From: the human T2T-CHM13v2.0 reference genome, Homo sapiens
DNA length: 64,000 nt
Reading direction: 5' to 3' (one strand)
Assembly (NCBI RefSeq): GCF_009914755.1
Contig: NC_060941.1
Each line of letters begins with the position of its first letter. The first letter of the stretch is position 1. Position numbers and translations under genes: made by a program. The notes under the pieces were generated by a model, which ran no database searches, had not been told where the DNA came from, and saw nothing but the letters and a program-made list of their open reading frames with translations. Shown here in pieces: positions 49,723-60,999 of this stretch.

Positions 49723-49805
49723 ATGCTGTTTTGGCACAACCAGCCGGAGCATCTATGGCCCAGTCCTGGGGACCTATACCCTGGGCCCCCCAGCAGCCTG
49801 CTCAG
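49723..49805 (+). pseudogene. CP2-like exon 1
   Basis: MLFWHNQPEHLWPSPGDLYPGPPSSLL(R)|gtaagg; TFCP2L1 begins MLFWHTQPEH. Confidence 0.9.
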
Positions 49806-50287
49806 GTAAGGGCTGGATCCCCCAGGTCCCGGGGAAAGTGCTGGTCTGAAGTTGGAGTGGACATCATCCATTTCAAGCTGAGGGAAGTGGGGCTCCCATT
49901 CCCGGGCTCCTCTGGAGATGGGGAAGTGGTCAAATGTACCTGGAGTTCAGTGTGTCCTGGGACATCTCAAAAACACCCTGATCCCACTTAGGACATTTTT
50001 GTTGGGAATTTACTCAGTATCAGGCAAGCTTTGAGGTTGCAAAGACAAGTAATTGATGGCAGCTGTTGAGTAGAACAGCCACAAATCTGAGATCAGCACC
50101 TTCAGGGAGGCCTCCTGGAGGCCTGAGGAGCTGAATGGGGGTCCCTTTGGCCCTGGCTGCAGCTTGGGGACCTGCTACAGGAAACTGTGGGTTCCCCAGA
50201 GGGAAGGTCTGGCATAGAGAGTCAAAGACCTTTAGAAAAGGGGATGGACAGGGCAGAAAGCTGGCAGAGCCCTCCTCTTCCTGGCAG

Positions 50288-50439
50288 GGAGCCCCTGCCC
50301 TTGCCCTACTTGAAGCAGGAGGAGCTGCCCAACATCCCTGGCACGGAGCTGCCCTGCCCCATGTTCTAGTACGTGCTCTGTGCAGCCACCTCGCCAGCCG
50401 TGAAGCAGCAGGAGGAGACCCTCACCTACCTGAACCAGG
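50288..50439 (+). pseudogene. CP2-like exon 2 (nonsense codon)
   Basis: [49 protein letters not shown](G); TAG at 50367-50369 where paralogs have Q; 152 nt. Confidence 0.93.
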
Positions 50440-50573
50440 GTATGCTAGGCCTGGGAGAGGGGAGGAGCTAGTGGGCAGTGAGCTCGGGAAGCTGGGCTCA
50501 GGGTGAGCTGGAGGTGGTAGGTGCCACTCTGCCCCTCAGAGTGGGGCTCACGCAACCCCTTAATCCCTCCCAC

Positions 50574-50647
50574 GCCAGTCCTATGAGGTCCGGATGCTCT
50601 GCAGCTCCAAGCCGTGTGATGCCACCCAGTGCCCCCAGCTGCTGAAG
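50574..50647 (+). pseudogene. CP2-like exon 3 (acceptor lost)
   Basis: (G)QSYEVRMLCSSKPCDATQCPQLLK|gtgggt; preceded by cccAC instead of AG. Confidence 0.85.
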
Positions 50648-51681
50648 GTGGGTACACTCCTCCCCGGAAGTGGCAAAGGCTGGGTATGACTGTTTCTCTG
50701 GGCAAGAAGCCAATGTCATCACAGTGATATCATCGTCACGGAGAACCCTCTCACGTCCGTCATTTAATTGGACCCTCACAACAGCTCCGTGGTGGGCAAG
50801 AATTGAAGAAACAGGCACAGAGAAGTTAAGTGTTTTCTCAAGGACACAGAGCCAGCAAGTAGCAGAACTGAGATTTAGAAACACATTTACACAGTGTAGG
50901 CTGGCCACAGTGGCTCACGCCTGTAATCCCAGCACTTTGGGAGGCTGAGGCGGGCGCATCACCTGAGGTCAGGAGTTCAAGACCAGCCATGGTGAAACCC
51001 CGTCTCTACTAAAAATGCAAAAATTACCTGGGCATGGTGGTGCACACCTGTAATCCCAGGTACTCGGGAGGCTGAGGCATGAGAATGGCTTGAACCCAGG
51101 AAGCAGAGGGTGCAGTGAGCAAAGATCGCACCACTACACTCCAGCCTGAGCAACAAAGCAGACTCTGTCTCAAAAAAATAATAATAATAAAAATAAAATT
51201 AGAAATATATTTACACAGTGTTATTCACACACATGACCTTTTCTCAAAAAATTACCTATTTAGCCCCCATTCTATGCCAGAAAATGTTCCATGAGCTAGG
51301 GATTCATCAGTAATGAGACAGATGTGGCTCCCTTCCTCAGGAGGCTTGCATTCTACTAAGACAAACAAGTAATTACACATATTCTGTGAAATGACCAACA
51401 GTGACATGTTGCAAAGAAATGGGTGGCGTGCCTAGGGTGGGAAGGCATTAACTCCCCCTTTTTACAGATGAGGAAACTGAGGCTCAGGGTCTCTAGATTA
51501 CTTCTCTGGTTCACAGTCGTGAGTGGCAGATGGGCATTTGAACACGCATTGGTGATTCTAAGTCCTAATGCCTCCTGGGGTAGGAAGGGAGGTGTGGGAA
51601 GGTCAGCCTACACAGGTGTGAAAACTGGGTCCTCAATGCTGGCGTCCTCTGACTGTGCGCCACGCCCTCCTGTGGCTGCAG

Positions 51682-51791
51682 AGTGTGGTGCAGGTGATGT
51701 TCCACGACCCGCACCTGCAGTACACAGAGCAGCAGCGGCAGCTGGCTGGGTGGAGGTGGAGCCGGGCCCAGGGACCGCATCCTGGACATCG
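51682..51791 (+). pseudogene. CP2-like exon 4 (+1 frameshift, donor lost)
   Basis: SVVQVMFHDPHLQYTEQQRQLAGWRWSR/fs/PRDRILDI(D)|ATgagt. Confidence 0.9.
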
Positions 51792-51899
51792 ATGAGTGGG
51801 GAAAGGCCGGGGGCCCTTCGAGCCTGAGCTCTGGCTCAGTAGTCCTTGTGGACTGGGAAGGCTGAGCCTGGCTCCCTGCTTGCCACCCTGTGCCTGCAG

Positions 51900-58515: not shown

Positions 58516-58598
58516 GCCCATCTGTCACCAACTGACTTTGTATGTGGCTCAGGAGACCTCTAGGCAAGGGAACGAGGTTCCTAAGAACCCTGACTCAG
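58516..58598 (+). pseudogene. CP2-like exon 12
   Basis: (R)PICHQLTLYVAQETSRQGNEVPKNPDS|gtgagg; compare VRPRLTIYVCQE. Confidence 0.85.
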
Positions 58599-59391
58599 GT
58601 GAGGTTCTGGCCTCTCTCTCCAGAACATAGGAAATTCAGGTGTAGCTGCATGAAACCTCTCCCTAGAAGAGGAATGGTGATACCCCACCATTCCTGGGAC
58701 CCAGGATGCCCTTCTTGGCATTTCCCTACCTTCCATGACCAGATTAGTCCCTCTCCTTCCAGAATGTCTCCTTGGGTTTATTCACCATGTTCTACTCCTC
58801 CACCCCACCTGATCGTCACTGCATTAGCATATGGGATTAGAACATCATCTTGTTATGTACTTGGGTCCCAGTCACTAATATGTGGGTGTCCTATGTCTTT
58901 AAACTGGGGGTTCCCCTCAGACACCTCCCAAAAGATGAGGGATGAGAGGTGAAGTAGACTTTTTTCCTTTTTTTTTTTTTTTGAGACGGAGTCTCACTCT
59001 GTTGCCCAGGCTGGAGTGCAGTGGCGCGATCTCAGCTCACTGCAACTTCTGCCACCCAGGTTCAAGAGATTCTCCTGCCTCAGCCTCCCAAGTAGTTGGG
59101 ATTACAGGAGCCTGCCACCATGCCCAGCTAATTTTTGTAGTTTTTAGTAGAGATGGGGTTTCACCATCTTGGCCAGGCTGGTCTTGAACTCCTGACCTCG
59201 TGATCCACCCCTCGGCCTCCCAAAGTGCTGGGATTACAGGCATGAGCCACCACACCCAGCCAACTTTTCCCTCTTTACTTCTCCTCCCCCCACCCCATAG
59301 CCATCTTCCTGGCACCCCTGGTTTCCTGTGGGCACATCTCTGGACTCCCTTCCCCTGCTGACCCCTGCCTCTGTGTTGCCCATGCCCCCAG

Positions 59392-59536
59392 ACTTTTATC
59401 AAGAGATCTCTCTGGATGAACTCAGTGCTGTAGAGCTGATGGGGAAACTGGCTGAGCTCTGGCCATCCCAGCCAATCAGATCCATCACCTTTTCCACCAG
59501 GGCACCGGGGGCATCTTCATTCTCCTCAGTGACCAG
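59392..59536 (+). pseudogene. CP2-like exon 13 (-1 frameshift, donor lost)
   Basis: FYQEISLDELSAVELMGKLAEL/fs/AIPANQIHHLFHQGTGGIFILLSDQ|ATaaag. Confidence 0.9.
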
Positions 59537-59682
59537 ATAAAGGGCAGCCATTTCCTGTCGCAAATCCCCACGGAGGCCTCGCTAACACTTCTGCCTCAGA
59601 TTAAGCTTTCTTTTCCATGGCATGGCTTGTTCTCTTTGGCTCTAATAACAAAATTGCCTTTGTGCCCGCTTCACTCTTACAG

Positions 59683-59734
59683 GTGGTCCAGAATTTTAAG
59701 GACGAATCATACTTTGTGGCTGTGGTGAAAAAAG
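59683..59734 (+). pseudogene. CP2-like exon 14 (donor lost)
   Basis: VVQNFKDESYFVAVVKK|GGattt; compare MVQNFQDESCFVLSTIK; 52 nt. Confidence 0.9.
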
Positions 59735-60961
59735 GGATTTTAGAGGCAGAGGAGTGTGCCTGGCTGGCCCTATAAAGGGGGATAAGAGTGTGCTGAGCAT
59801 ATATTCCGTCTCCTAAATGAGACTAAAAGGCTCTTTGGGGGCCAGGCGCAGTGGCTCATGCCTGTAATCCCAGCACTTTGGGAGGCTGAGGCAGGTGGAT
59901 CACTTGAGGACAGGAATTCAAAACCAGCCTGGCCAACATGGCAAAACCCCATCTCTATAAAAAATACAAAAAACTACCCGGGCGTGCTGGCACGTGCCCG
60001 TGGTCCCAGCTACTTGGGAGGCTGAGGCAGGAGAATCCCTTGAACCCAGGAGGCAGAGGTTGCAGTGAACCGAGATTGCCCCACTGCACTCCAGCCTGGC
60101 TGACAGAGCGAGTCTGTCTCAAACGTCTCAAAAACAAACAAACAAACAAAAAACCTCTTTGAAGGGGATTAAGGGGATGTGTCCCAATTAACTAGCAAAC
60201 ACCTGTGAATGCCAGCTTTGTGTCAAGGGGAGAGGGATTTGTATAGCTAAAAGATATTTATTGCTTAGGAAAAACATGACTGAATAAATGCATCCTCATT
60301 AAATAAAAAATGCTCCAGTTTCTGTTGTCAGGGAGTTTATTAGAGGGAAAGGTAAGGCCCCCACTTTTCTCCACCTGCCCCTGGCATGATACAAGGCAGA
60401 AGGGCAGGTGCTTCCTGGACATCATCTGGCATAGGGCACCTCTGACTAGTCTGCTTGGCATCTGGTTATTCAGATGTTTGCCTTCCACCCCTCCACATGC
60501 CAGAGCTGGTCAGCTTGGCTTATGTACACAAGGGGGTAGGAAGAGGTAGATGTGAAGTCGGGTTTTAAGACACGTGTGGCCGGGCGTGGTGGCTCACACC
60601 TGTAACCCCAGCACTTTGGGAGGCCGAGGTGGGCAGATCATGAGGTCAGGAGTTCAAGACCAGCCTGGCCAAAATGGTGGAACCCCATCTCTACTAAAAA
60701 TACAAAAATTAGCCAGGCGTGGTGGCGGGCACTTGTAATCCCAGCTCCTCGGGAGGCTGAGGCAGGAGAATCGCTGGAACCCGGGAGGTGGAGGTTGCAG
60801 TGAACTATCGTGCTACTGCACTCCAGCCTGGGTGACGAGCGAAACTTCACCTCAAAAAAAGAAATAAAACAAAAAAACACTTGGGTGTGCCAGACGCATT
60901 GTAGGCTGCTTGGAGGGTGAGGACCTGACTGGTCCTGCTGGTGCCTTTTTACTGCTTTCGG

Positions 60962-60999
60962 TGCAGAATCCAGATGGCTACTACTTGGTTCTGACCTAG
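60962..60999 (+). pseudogene. CP2-like exon 15, terminal (acceptor lost)
   Basis: tttttactgctttcGG|(V)[11 protein letters not shown]; compare AESNDGYHIILK. Confidence 0.82.

What the first reader, a model, noticed from the sequence alone, without database searches (positions are those of the whole stretch)
49723..60999. Probable missing fourth 2R ohnolog of the CP2 family, likely intact in other vertebrates
Known, from memory: TFCP2 is at 12q13 (region of HOXC, CACNB3, STAC3); TFCP2L1 is at 2q14 next to CLASP1; UBP1 is at 3p22 between FBXL2 and CLASP2, near STAC; FBXL20 lies just beyond this window's right edge. Seen: this CP2 relic sits beside STAC2 and CACNB1. Inference: STAC2-[CP2 relic]-FBXL20 mirrors STAC...FBXL2-UBP1, so this is the chr17 paralogon copy. 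Its good preservation implies loss during mammalian or primate evolution.
Basis: inference. Interest (0 to 1): 0.85.

Follow-up and report, generated by a model that had tools for sequence, protein, structure and literature searches.

The report
Dead fourth CP2 transcription factor gene
Between STAC2 and FBXL20 on human chromosome 17 lies the broken remnant of a fourth CP2/LSF-type transcription factor gene that is still intact in most other land vertebrates but is absent from reviews, which count only three such genes in mammals.

Summary
Window 49723-60999 (+) holds all 15 exons of a CP2/LSF-type gene, from ATG to TAG, with introns where the paralogs have them. It carries about ten disabling lesions: one stop, three frameshifts, a degraded exon 6 start and four broken splice sites.

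It is not a copy of a human paralog. It is 86% identical to a lemur protein and 56-59% to human TFCP2, UBP1 and TFCP2L1. Full-length relatives exist in many placentals, marsupials, platypus, crocodilians, turtles, squamates, birds, salamanders and caecilians. In trees they form a fourth clade (support 100) outside the other three.

AU tests reject nesting it inside tetrapod TFCP2L1, inside TFCP2, or inside part of UBP1.

In the human genome the relic lies tail-to-tail with FBXL20, as UBP1 does with an FBXL-like gene. STAC and CACNB paralogs lie on the chromosomes that carry UBP1, TFCP2 and TFCP2L1.

The 2R-ohnolog reading is therefore well supported but not closed, because I found no fish or shark member.

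Inactivation came after the lemur split and before the human-orangutan split. No full-length rodent or rabbit protein appeared.

RefSeq already annotates the pseudogene. None of my eight searches or nine papers describes the fourth gene.

The parts
49723..49805 (+). Exon 1 coding part, ATG at 49723. The RefSeq exon starts at 49662.
   Evidence: MLFWHNQPEHLWPSPGDLYPGPPSSLL, 82% identical to the lemur relative, donor gt present
50288..50439 (+). Exon 2, start of the CP2 DNA-binding domain, with an in-frame TAG at 50367-50369 where relatives have Q
   Evidence: Pfam CP2 on 50370-50438 (19 bits, below cut-off)
50579..50647 (+). Exon 3
51682..51791 (+). Exon 4. It has an extra in-frame codon and a frameshift after ...WRWSR (about 51766). 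The donor reads AT at 51792-51793 where the three human paralogs have GT. NR_164152 skips this exon.
   Evidence: the ancestral states are inferred from the paralogs' exon ends and from the relatives' proteins
51900..52006 (+). Exon 5
   Evidence: (89% identical to lemur)
55114..55245 (+). Exon 6 as now spliced. The ancestral first seven codons (VHCISTE in relatives and paralogs) are degraded just upstream (about 55090-55113), and an AG at 55112-55113 serves as acceptor.
   Evidence: (CP2, 31.3 bits); the orangutan model P0020 has the same FLQ|FTP junction
55820..55925 (+). Exon 7 with a frameshift in the PKGADRK codons. 22 bases stand where nine codons are expected, so I infer a 5-base deletion near 55832.
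56372..56469 (+). Exon 8 (CSPWPE... linker)
56698..56752 (+). Exon 9
57005..57098 (+). Exon 10, first half of the CP2-type SAM domain
   Evidence: (SAM_3, 23.9 bits)
57491..57581 (+). Exon 11, second half of the SAM domain. The RefSeq transcript reads through the donor to 57719 and ends in a masked repeat.
   Evidence: (SAM_3, 28 bits); hub annotation
58516..58598 (+). Exon 12 (PICHQLTLYVAQE...), not part of the RefSeq transcript
59392..59536 (+). Exon 13 with a frameshift after ...KLAEL (about 59459, one base short). The donor reads AT at 59537-59538.
   Evidence: the Saimiri model reads V (GTA-type) where human reads I
59683..59733 (+). Exon 14 (VVQNFKDESYFVAVVKK). No GT follows it; the next bases are gg.
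60961..60999 (+). Exon 15 ([12 protein letters not shown], then TAG). It is preceded by cg instead of ag.

Best explanation
LOC101929578 is a unitary (unprocessed) pseudogene. It is the human remnant of a fourth gene of the LSF/CP2 subfamily.

In species that keep the gene, it encodes a protein of about 480 aa with the same build as TFCP2, UBP1 and TFCP2L1: a CP2 DNA-binding domain, a CP2-type SAM domain and a C-terminal oligomerisation region. It presumably acts as a sequence-specific transcription factor. Function is inferred from the domains and from conservation over a long time. Nothing was assayed.

The gene most likely arose together with FBXL20 in the large block duplications of early vertebrates (2R). 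On that reading it is the chr17-paralogon counterpart of FBXL2-UBP1. It then evolved four to five times faster than TFCP2L1 and survived in amphibians, sauropsids and most mammals.

In the human lineage, constraint was lost after the split from lemurs and before the human-orangutan split. The gene then gathered one stop, three frameshifts, a damaged exon 6 start and four splice-site lesions. It is still transcribed as a spliced non-coding RNA that skips exon 4 and ends in a repeat after exon 11.

Shown here: the anatomy, the lesions, the separate clade, the taxon range and the human synteny. Inferred: 2R as the duplication event, the timing of inactivation, loss in rodents and rabbits, and function in other species.
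For: Anatomy and lesions. Exon ends match those of the three human paralogs.

Domains. Pfam domains PF25416 + PF04516 + PF18016 are precomputed on the relatives.

It is not a copy of a human gene. On the trimmed alignment the relic is 86.1% identical to lemur P0064. P0064 is 58.7%, 56.0% and 57.6% identical to human TFCP2, UBP1 and TFCP2L1.

Relatives:
- Exon 6 as query gave 112 proteins at E<=1e-3 among 116 candidates.
- P0064 as query gave 2433 proteins at E<=1e-10. The best 120 listed run from placentals (73-100% identity among full-length models) to marsupials 69-75%, platypus 65%, crocodile, turtles and squamates 62-68%, birds 59-64%, and salamanders and a caecilian 59-60%.

Trees:
- The fourth clade has SH-like support 100 and UFBoot 100.
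- UBP1 has 95-98, TFCP2 95-99 and TFCP2L1 99-100.
- The relic is sister to Saimiri (99-100) inside the placentals.
- Monodelphis and Pleurodeles each have one protein in the fourth clade and another in the TFCP2L1 clade.

AU tests:
- Rejected: fourth clade nested with tetrapod TFCP2L1 (p 0.012), with TFCP2 (0.011), with part of UBP1 (0.029 and 0.021).
- Not rejected: sister of all UBP1 (0.59), sister of all TFCP2L1 including ray-finned fish (0.54), outside all three (0.23).

Synteny in the human genome:
- Seven colinear exon matches join C17:40125453-40164948 (-) and C3:33387290-33361090 (+). Both stretches face the 3' end of the CP2 gene.
- STAC paralogs. CACNB paralogs.

Timing: the orangutan models P0020 and P0021 lack the same exon 6 start and read through after exon 11 as human does. 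Branch lengths are lemur 0.055 against human 0.050 + 0.060.
Against: No member of the fourth clade was found in ray-finned fish, coelacanth, sharks or frogs.
- A first tree put four unnamed sequences as sister to the clade.
- With names and better sampling they proved to be teleost tfcp2l1.
- This negative is weak. Only the best 120 or 150 hits are listed, and the representative library collapses proteins at 50% identity.

The clade sits on a long stem (0.35-0.39), so its deep position could partly be long-branch attraction.

The order of the four clades is unresolved (TFCP2+TFCP2L1 at UFBoot 56).

The UBP1-clade rows other than human are unnamed representatives, known only as Chordata. The rejection of a late origin from UBP1 therefore rests on unknown taxa.

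The AU tests used LG+F+G4 with fast constrained searches. The careful mixture-model search did not finish.

Synteny of the intact genes in other species was not shown. The only hint is an unnamed cattle gene listed between STAC2 and FBXL20 in a table of PMC9052698.

Ancestral bases at the lesions are inferred, because no orthologous DNA was available.
Confidence: 0.72

Rival explanations
1. The gene family and the pseudogene are as described, but the fourth gene arose later. A segmental duplication of an FBXL-UBP1 block on the sarcopterygian or tetrapod stem produced it, not 2R, and it then evolved fast.
For: Members were found only in tetrapods. Rooted on the invertebrate rows, the free ML tree puts the clade as sister of UBP1. 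The stem is long. Microsynteny with an FBXL gene fits any block duplication.
Against: AU rejects nesting within the UBP1 clade (p 0.029 and 0.021), though those rows are unnamed. Amphibian members are equally distant from the three human paralogs (62.7%, 62.2% and 62.0%). The locus sits among STAC2 and CACNB1, whose paralogs lie on the chromosomes of UBP1, TFCP2 and TFCP2L1. That is what a whole-genome event predicts. From recall only: fish have both fbxl2 and fbxl20.
Confidence: 0.2
2. The relic is a primate-specific duplicated or processed copy of TFCP2, TFCP2L1 or UBP1.
For: RefSeq names it only 'transcription factor CP2-like'. NCBI names its relatives 'TFCP2L1'.
Against: It has 15 exons with introns. 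It is 86% identical to lemur P0064, which is 56-59% identical to the human paralogs. It nests among placental members of a separate clade.
Confidence: 0.01
3. The locus is dead as a CP2 gene but has a retained or new role in humans as a non-coding RNA or short peptide.
For: It has a curated spliced transcript, NR_164152 (hub annotation). A table in PMC4758788 lists it as strongly raised in HER2-enriched breast cancer (passage seen).
Against: The reading frame from the ATG stops after 54 codons. The raised expression is expected for a passenger near ERBB2 on 17q12 (the ERBB2 position is recalled). Nothing here shows constraint on the RNA.
Confidence: 0.07

Closest known systems
UBP1 (LBP-1a), human chr3
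   Same: It has the same domain build and the same exon ends. It has the same neighbour arrangement, tail-to-tail with an FBXL gene. It is the sister clade in the free ML tree, and that placement is not rejected by AU (p 0.59).
   Different: It is only 56% identical to the lemur member of the fourth clade. It forms a separate clade (95-98). It is intact in human.
TFCP2 (LSF/CP2), human chr12
   Same: The CP2 domain of exon 6 matches its solved DNA-binding domain 8y7v_A (E 7e-14). It has the same architecture.
   Different: It is 58.7% identical. A sister grouping with the fourth clade is rejected (AU 0.011).
TFCP2L1 (CRTR-1/LBP-9), human chr2
   Same: NCBI gives this name to most members of the fourth clade. 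It has the same architecture.
   Different: True TFCP2L1 of mammals, birds, reptiles, amphibians, coelacanth and ray-finned fish forms its own clade (99-100) without the fourth clade. Monodelphis and Pleurodeles have one of each. TFCP2L1 evolves four to five times more slowly: 94.2% against 75.6% between placental and opossum.
Human unitary pseudogenes of old vertebrate genes, such as GULOP (recalled, not examined here)
   Same: Introns are kept, there are several disabling lesions, there is no functional copy in human, and the gene is intact in other mammals.
   Different: The lost gene here is a transcription factor of a family that reviews count as three in mammals. It seems to be missing from rodents as well, so neither main reference species has it.

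Membership tests
LSF/CP2 subfamily of Grainyhead/CP2 transcription factors | CP2 DNA-binding domain (Pfam PF04516) | tested here: met
   Exon 6 scores 31.3 bits against a cut-off of 25. Exon 2 scores 19 bits, below the cut-off. The genome scan hits C17:40107108-40107254.
LSF/CP2 subfamily of Grainyhead/CP2 transcription factors | CP2-type SAM domain (PF18016), which GRHL proteins lack | tested here: met
   Exons 10 and 11 score 23.9 and 28 bits against a cut-off of 22.6.
LSF/CP2 subfamily of Grainyhead/CP2 transcription factors | C-terminal oligomerisation region (PF25416) | tested here: inconclusive
   It is precomputed on the intact relatives. Relic exons 12-15 align to that part of P0064. 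The relic pieces themselves were not scanned against Pfam.
LSF/CP2 subfamily of Grainyhead/CP2 transcription factors | Open reading frame giving a whole protein | tested here: not met
   There is a stop, three frameshifts, a damaged exon 6 start and four splice-site lesions. It is a member by descent only.
Unitary (unprocessed) pseudogene | Introns kept at the family's positions, and disabling lesions present | tested here: met
Unitary (unprocessed) pseudogene | No parent gene in the same genome; the nearest relatives are genes of other species | tested here: met
Unitary (unprocessed) pseudogene | Intact ortholog at the syntenic place in other species | not testable with these tools
   Intact relatives were found by sequence. 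No genomic context is available for them. The only hint is a cattle table that lists an unnamed gene between STAC2 and FBXL20.
2R ohnolog set | Up to four vertebrate clades against outgroup lineages | tested here: met
   Four clades sit inside one vertebrate group (98) and invertebrate-like rows sit outside it. The outgroup rows are unnamed.
2R ohnolog set | Duplication older than the split of ray-finned fish and tetrapods | tested here: inconclusive
   AU rejects the late, nested placements. No fish or shark member of the fourth clade was found.
2R ohnolog set | Members lie in paralogous chromosome blocks | tested here: met
   FBXL neighbour pairs, the STAC family and the CACNB family. CLASP1/CLASP2 was not tested.
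TFCP2L1 orthologs (the name NCBI gives the relatives) | Groups with human TFCP2L1 in a tree | tested here: not met
   nesting is rejected at p 0.012

The most novel reading that the evidence does not exclude
Tetrapods carry a fourth, fast-evolving LSF/CP2 transcription factor, the 2R twin of UBP1. It has been kept for more than 300 million years and was lost independently in anthropoid or catarrhine primates and in rodents and rabbits. It has gone unstudied because neither human nor mouse has it.

In amniotes it carries Leu at a position that is Gln in every other CP2-subfamily row examined (30 of 30). By recall, this is one of the two residues changed in the dominant-negative LSF mutant. It may therefore bind DNA differently, or act mainly by pairing with the other three.
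Probability: 0.45. Interest if true: 0.7.

Novelty: new member of a known kind. Interest (0 to 1): 0.6.

Why it matters
Reviews of this family count three LSF/CP2 genes in mammals. PMC7471608 says 'three mammalian orthologs' (passage), and a table in PMC6585022 lists six human family members. The gene models of the fourth member exist in public databases, but under the names of its paralogs.

A fourth member present in dog, cat, cow, pig, horse, bats, whales, elephant, marsupials, birds and reptiles has three consequences.
- Work on TFCP2, UBP1 and TFCP2L1 partners and redundancy in those species misses a player.
- Automatic names ('TFCP2L1', 'UBP1-like') mislead orthology tables.
- Comparative pipelines that start from human or mouse gene sets cannot see it.

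For humans it is one more dated gene loss. It also explains a transcribed 'lncRNA' near the ERBB2 region.

Tried and rejected
- One search failed because a stop codon lay in a reference. I corrected the coordinates.
- Stitching the human paralogs with poor guide proteins gave duplicated exons or read through introns. I replaced this with exon clusters and trimmed coordinates.
- The first tree suggested four unnamed sequences as fish sisters of the fourth clade. Naming them and resampling showed that they are teleost tfcp2l1.
I replaced it with unique shared 7-mer peptides. Most clusters in that list are repeat noise. Only the seven colinear pairs (- strand on C17, + strand on C3) are used.
- The careful mixture-model tree did not finish in two runs. 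Full constrained searches timed out and were redone with fast searches.
- The Pfam CLASP_N scan of the genome gave one unrelated hit. That adjacency is therefore untested.
- The protein atlas gave only 'Chordata' for P0155.
- A screen for clade-specific changes at otherwise invariant columns gave only three columns.
- Literature. The eight searches were LOC101929578, TFCP2 + TFCP2L1 + UBP1 + pseudogene, Grainyhead/CP2/phylogeny/whole genome duplication, STAC2/FBXL20/CP2-like, ENSBTAG00000008368, unitary pseudogene + CP2, FBXL2 + FBXL20 + UBP1, and tfcp2l1 + ubp1 + tfcp2 + zebrafish. I also ran term look-ups in nine papers: PMC9219640, PMC3348937, PMC6213935, PMC2873413, PMC6617995, PMC9052698, PMC4758788, PMC6585022 and PMC7471608. 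None describes a fourth CP2 gene. I saw passages only, no whole papers and no supplements.

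
Full report
**What is there**

The window is human chr17 (T2T) 40052001-40116000. Translating the ten exons of the annotated transcribed pseudogene LOC101929578 gives recognisable CP2-family peptides broken by stops and frame changes.

tblastn of an intact relative (Lemur catta P0064, 477 aa) finds the whole gene on the + strand, from the ATG at 49723 to the TAG at 60997-60999, in 15 exons. Five of the exons (4 and 12-15) are not in the RefSeq transcript.

Evidence for the domains:
- In the Pfam scan, 4 of 7 exon translations matched: CP2 on exons 2 and 6, and the CP2-type SAM domain on exons 10 and 11. 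Exons 3, 5 and 7 gave nothing.
- The nearest solved structure for exon 6 is the DNA-binding domain of human TFCP2 (8y7v_A, E 7e-14).
- A Pfam CP2 scan of the whole genome gives 16 matches at seven places: three GRHL genes, UBP1, TFCP2, TFCP2L1 and this locus.

**How it is broken**

- A TAG at 50367-50369 in exon 2, where relatives have Gln.
- In exon 4, an extra codon, a frameshift near 51766 and a donor that reads AT (51792-51793) where the three human paralogs read GT. The RefSeq transcript skips this exon.
- The first seven codons of exon 6 (VHCISTE in all relatives) are degraded, and a new acceptor is used at 55112-55113.
- A frameshift in exon 7: 22 bases stand where 27 are expected.
- In exon 13, a one-base frameshift near 59459 and a donor that reads AT (59537-59538).
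- No GT after exon 14.
- CG instead of AG before exon 15.

Ancestral states are inferred from the relatives' proteins and from the paralogs' exon ends, because no orthologous DNA was available. The frame from the ATG ends after 54 codons.

**Whose relic it is**

With exon 6 (44 aa) as query, 112 proteins matched among 116 candidates.
- These include full-length models of about 480-500 aa in bats, carnivores, ruminants, pigs, camels, whales, horse and rhinoceros, pangolin, moles, elephant, aardvark, tenrecs, golden mole, lemurs, colugo and squirrel monkey.
- There are short models in orangutan and a human fragment.

With P0064 as query, 2433 proteins passed E 1e-10, and the best 120 were listed.
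- After the placentals come eight marsupials (69-75% identity), platypus (65%), crocodile, turtles and squamates (62-68%), birds (59-64%), two salamanders and a caecilian (59-60%).
- No rodent, rabbit or Old World monkey protein is in either list.
- Rodent TFCP2L1 is in the database. The absence therefore points to loss or to unannotated relics. It is not proof.

NCBI and UniProt call most of these proteins 'TFCP2L1' or 'UBP1-like'.

**Is it a separate gene family member?**

I assembled the conserved exons of human TFCP2, UBP1 and TFCP2L1 from the genome. I added 150 unnamed cluster representatives. Of the 145 that were new, the 127 of at least 330 aa went into the first tree. After, I also added named TFCP2L1 of fish, coelacanth, amphibians, reptiles, birds and mammals.

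In all four trees the tetrapod proteins above and the human relic form one clade with support 100 on a long stem (0.35-0.39). The trees are FastTree with 159 rows, FastTree with 92 rows, IQ-TREE PMSF quick with 44 rows and LG+F+G4 with 1000 UFBoot.
- UBP1 (95-98), TFCP2 (95-99) and TFCP2L1 (99-100, including ray-finned fish and coelacanth) are separate clades.
- The relic is sister to Saimiri (99-100) among the placentals.
- Monodelphis and Pleurodeles each have one protein in the fourth clade and one in TFCP2L1.

Identities on the trimmed alignment:
- Relic to lemur: 86.1%.
- Lemur member to human TFCP2, UBP1 and TFCP2L1: 58.7%, 56.0% and 57.6%.
- Salamander member to the same three: 62.7%, 62.2% and 62.0%.
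- The human paralogs among themselves: 71-80%.
- The fourth clade evolves four to five times faster than TFCP2L1. For example, placental to opossum is 75.6% against 94.2%.

**How old is it?**

The order of the four clades is not resolved (TFCP2+TFCP2L1 at UFBoot 56). AU tests were run on fast constrained searches under LG+F+G4.
- Not rejected: the fourth clade as sister of all UBP1 (p 0.59, and also the free ML tree when rooted on the invertebrate rows), as sister of all TFCP2L1 (0.54), or outside the other three (0.23).
- Rejected: with TFCP2 (0.011), nested with tetrapod TFCP2L1 to the exclusion of coelacanth and ray-finned fish (0.012), and nested with part of the UBP1 clade (0.029 and 0.021).

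The last test rests on unnamed rows. An origin after the fish-tetrapod split is therefore disfavoured.

Against this stand the long stem and the fact that I found no fish, shark or frog member. The one apparent fish sister group proved to be teleost tfcp2l1. The careful mixture-model search did not finish.

**Synteny in the human genome**

- Unique shared 7-mer peptides pick out seven colinear exon pairs between C17:40125453-40164948 (- strand, the FBXL20 side) and C3:33387290-33361090 (+ strand), which lies just beside UBP1.
- In both places the FBXL gene and the CP2 gene lie tail-to-tail, a few kb apart.
- A STAC2 exon has paralogs at C3:36.53 Mb, 3.1 Mb from UBP1, and at C12:57.21 Mb, 6.1 Mb from TFCP2.
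- A CACNB1 exon has paralogs at C12:48.79 Mb (2.3 Mb from TFCP2), C2:152.3 Mb (30.6 Mb from TFCP2L1) and C10:18.4 Mb.

The CLASP1/CLASP2 part could not be checked.

A block duplication that carried an FBXL gene and a CP2 gene together, inside a four-fold paralogous region, is best explained by the early vertebrate genome duplications. A later block duplication remains a rival at about 0.2.

**When was it lost?**

- Lemurs, colugo and tree shrew have whole models.
- The orangutan models lack the same exon 6 start, skip exon 7, and read through after exon 11 to the same stop as human. The gene was therefore already broken before that split.
- The Saimiri model keeps Gln at the human stop and has intact exons 6, 7 and 13. 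It lacks 13 residues of exon 4 and reads into intron 13. The Saguinus model is disordered. The platyrrhine state is unclear.
- Branch lengths suggest that constraint weakened on the anthropoid stem. They are lemur 0.055, the shared human-Saimiri stem 0.050 and human 0.060. With recalled neutral rates this gives a few tens of millions of years, which is a rough inference only.

**What is in print**

RefSeq already annotates the locus as a transcribed pseudogene 'transcription factor CP2-like' (hub table).

In the library I could search:
- The locus name occurs in one paper, in a table of genes raised in HER2-enriched breast cancer (PMC4758788, passage).
- A 2019 paralogy study lists six human family members (PMC6585022, table passage).
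- The 2018 review of TFCP2/TFCP2L1/UBP1 contains none of the words paralog, pseudogene or fourth (PMC6213935, term look-up).
- A cattle study lists an unnamed gene, ENSBTAG00000008368, between STAC2 and FBXL20 (PMC9052698, passage). Its identity was not checked.

Eight searches found no description of a fourth CP2 gene. Subscription journals and supplements were not covered.

**Verdict**

The locus is a unitary pseudogene of a fourth, ancient LSF/CP2 gene that most tetrapods keep. It is most likely the chr17 ohnolog partnered with FBXL20.

It is a new member of a known kind, hidden under paralog names in the databases. Its interest is moderate to good for people who work on this family or on gene loss. 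It is not a new kind of biology.

Noticed in passing
alignment column of CQIKVF (window about 55225-55245, exon 6): At the Gln of CQIKVF, 30 of 30 rows outside the fourth clade have Q. This covers the vertebrate paralogs and the outgroups. So do 3 of 3 amphibian members of the fourth clade. All 11 amniote members, the human relic included, have L. By recall only, Q234 is one of the two residues changed in the dominant-negative LSF mutant, so amniote members may bind DNA differently.
   Followed up: partly
proteins P0115/P0356 (Monodelphis) and P0146/P0410 (Pleurodeles): Public names mislead. Members of the fourth clade are called 'TFCP2L1', 'UBP1', 'UBP1-like' or 'CP2' in well over a hundred records. 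Single species therefore carry two different genes under one name.
   Followed up: yes
window 57491-57719 and 51682-51791: The curated transcript NR_164152 skips exon 4, whose donor is AT. It also reads through the exon 11 donor into a masked repeat (57651-58122), where it ends. The orangutan model reads through at the same place.
   Followed up: partly
window about 49140-49200: A GT/CA dinucleotide run lies about 0.5 kb upstream of the first exon. It shows as HTHTHT and CVCVCV in the stop-to-stop frames.
   Followed up: no
PMC9052698, table passage: Cattle chromosome 19 is listed with an unnamed Ensembl gene, ENSBTAG00000008368, between STAC2 and FBXL20. That is the place where the intact gene would be expected. 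Its identity was not checked.
   Followed up: partly
PMC4758788, table passage: LOC101929578 is listed as a 'protein-coding gene' with about 9 log2-fold higher expression in HER2-enriched breast cancer. It is probably a passenger of the nearby 17q12 amplification. The position of ERBB2 is recalled.
   Followed up: no
representatives P0170, P0283, P0242: Three unnamed proteins form the sister group (99) of all four vertebrate clades. Their taxa are unknown. If they are cyclostome or invertebrate chordate proteins, they would help to date the duplications.
   Followed up: no
protein P0150 (source ena, contig 4405 bases): This is a 590-aa TFCP2-like model that is 90% identical to human TFCP2 and has one exon pair twice. 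It is probably an assembly or prediction artefact.
   Followed up: no
column 'longest_contig': Members of the fourth clade in carnivores, ruminants and pigs sit on sequences of about 60-67 Mb. By recall, that is the size of the chromosomes homologous to human 17 in cat, dog, cattle and pig. This is a soft hint of conserved synteny.
   Followed up: no
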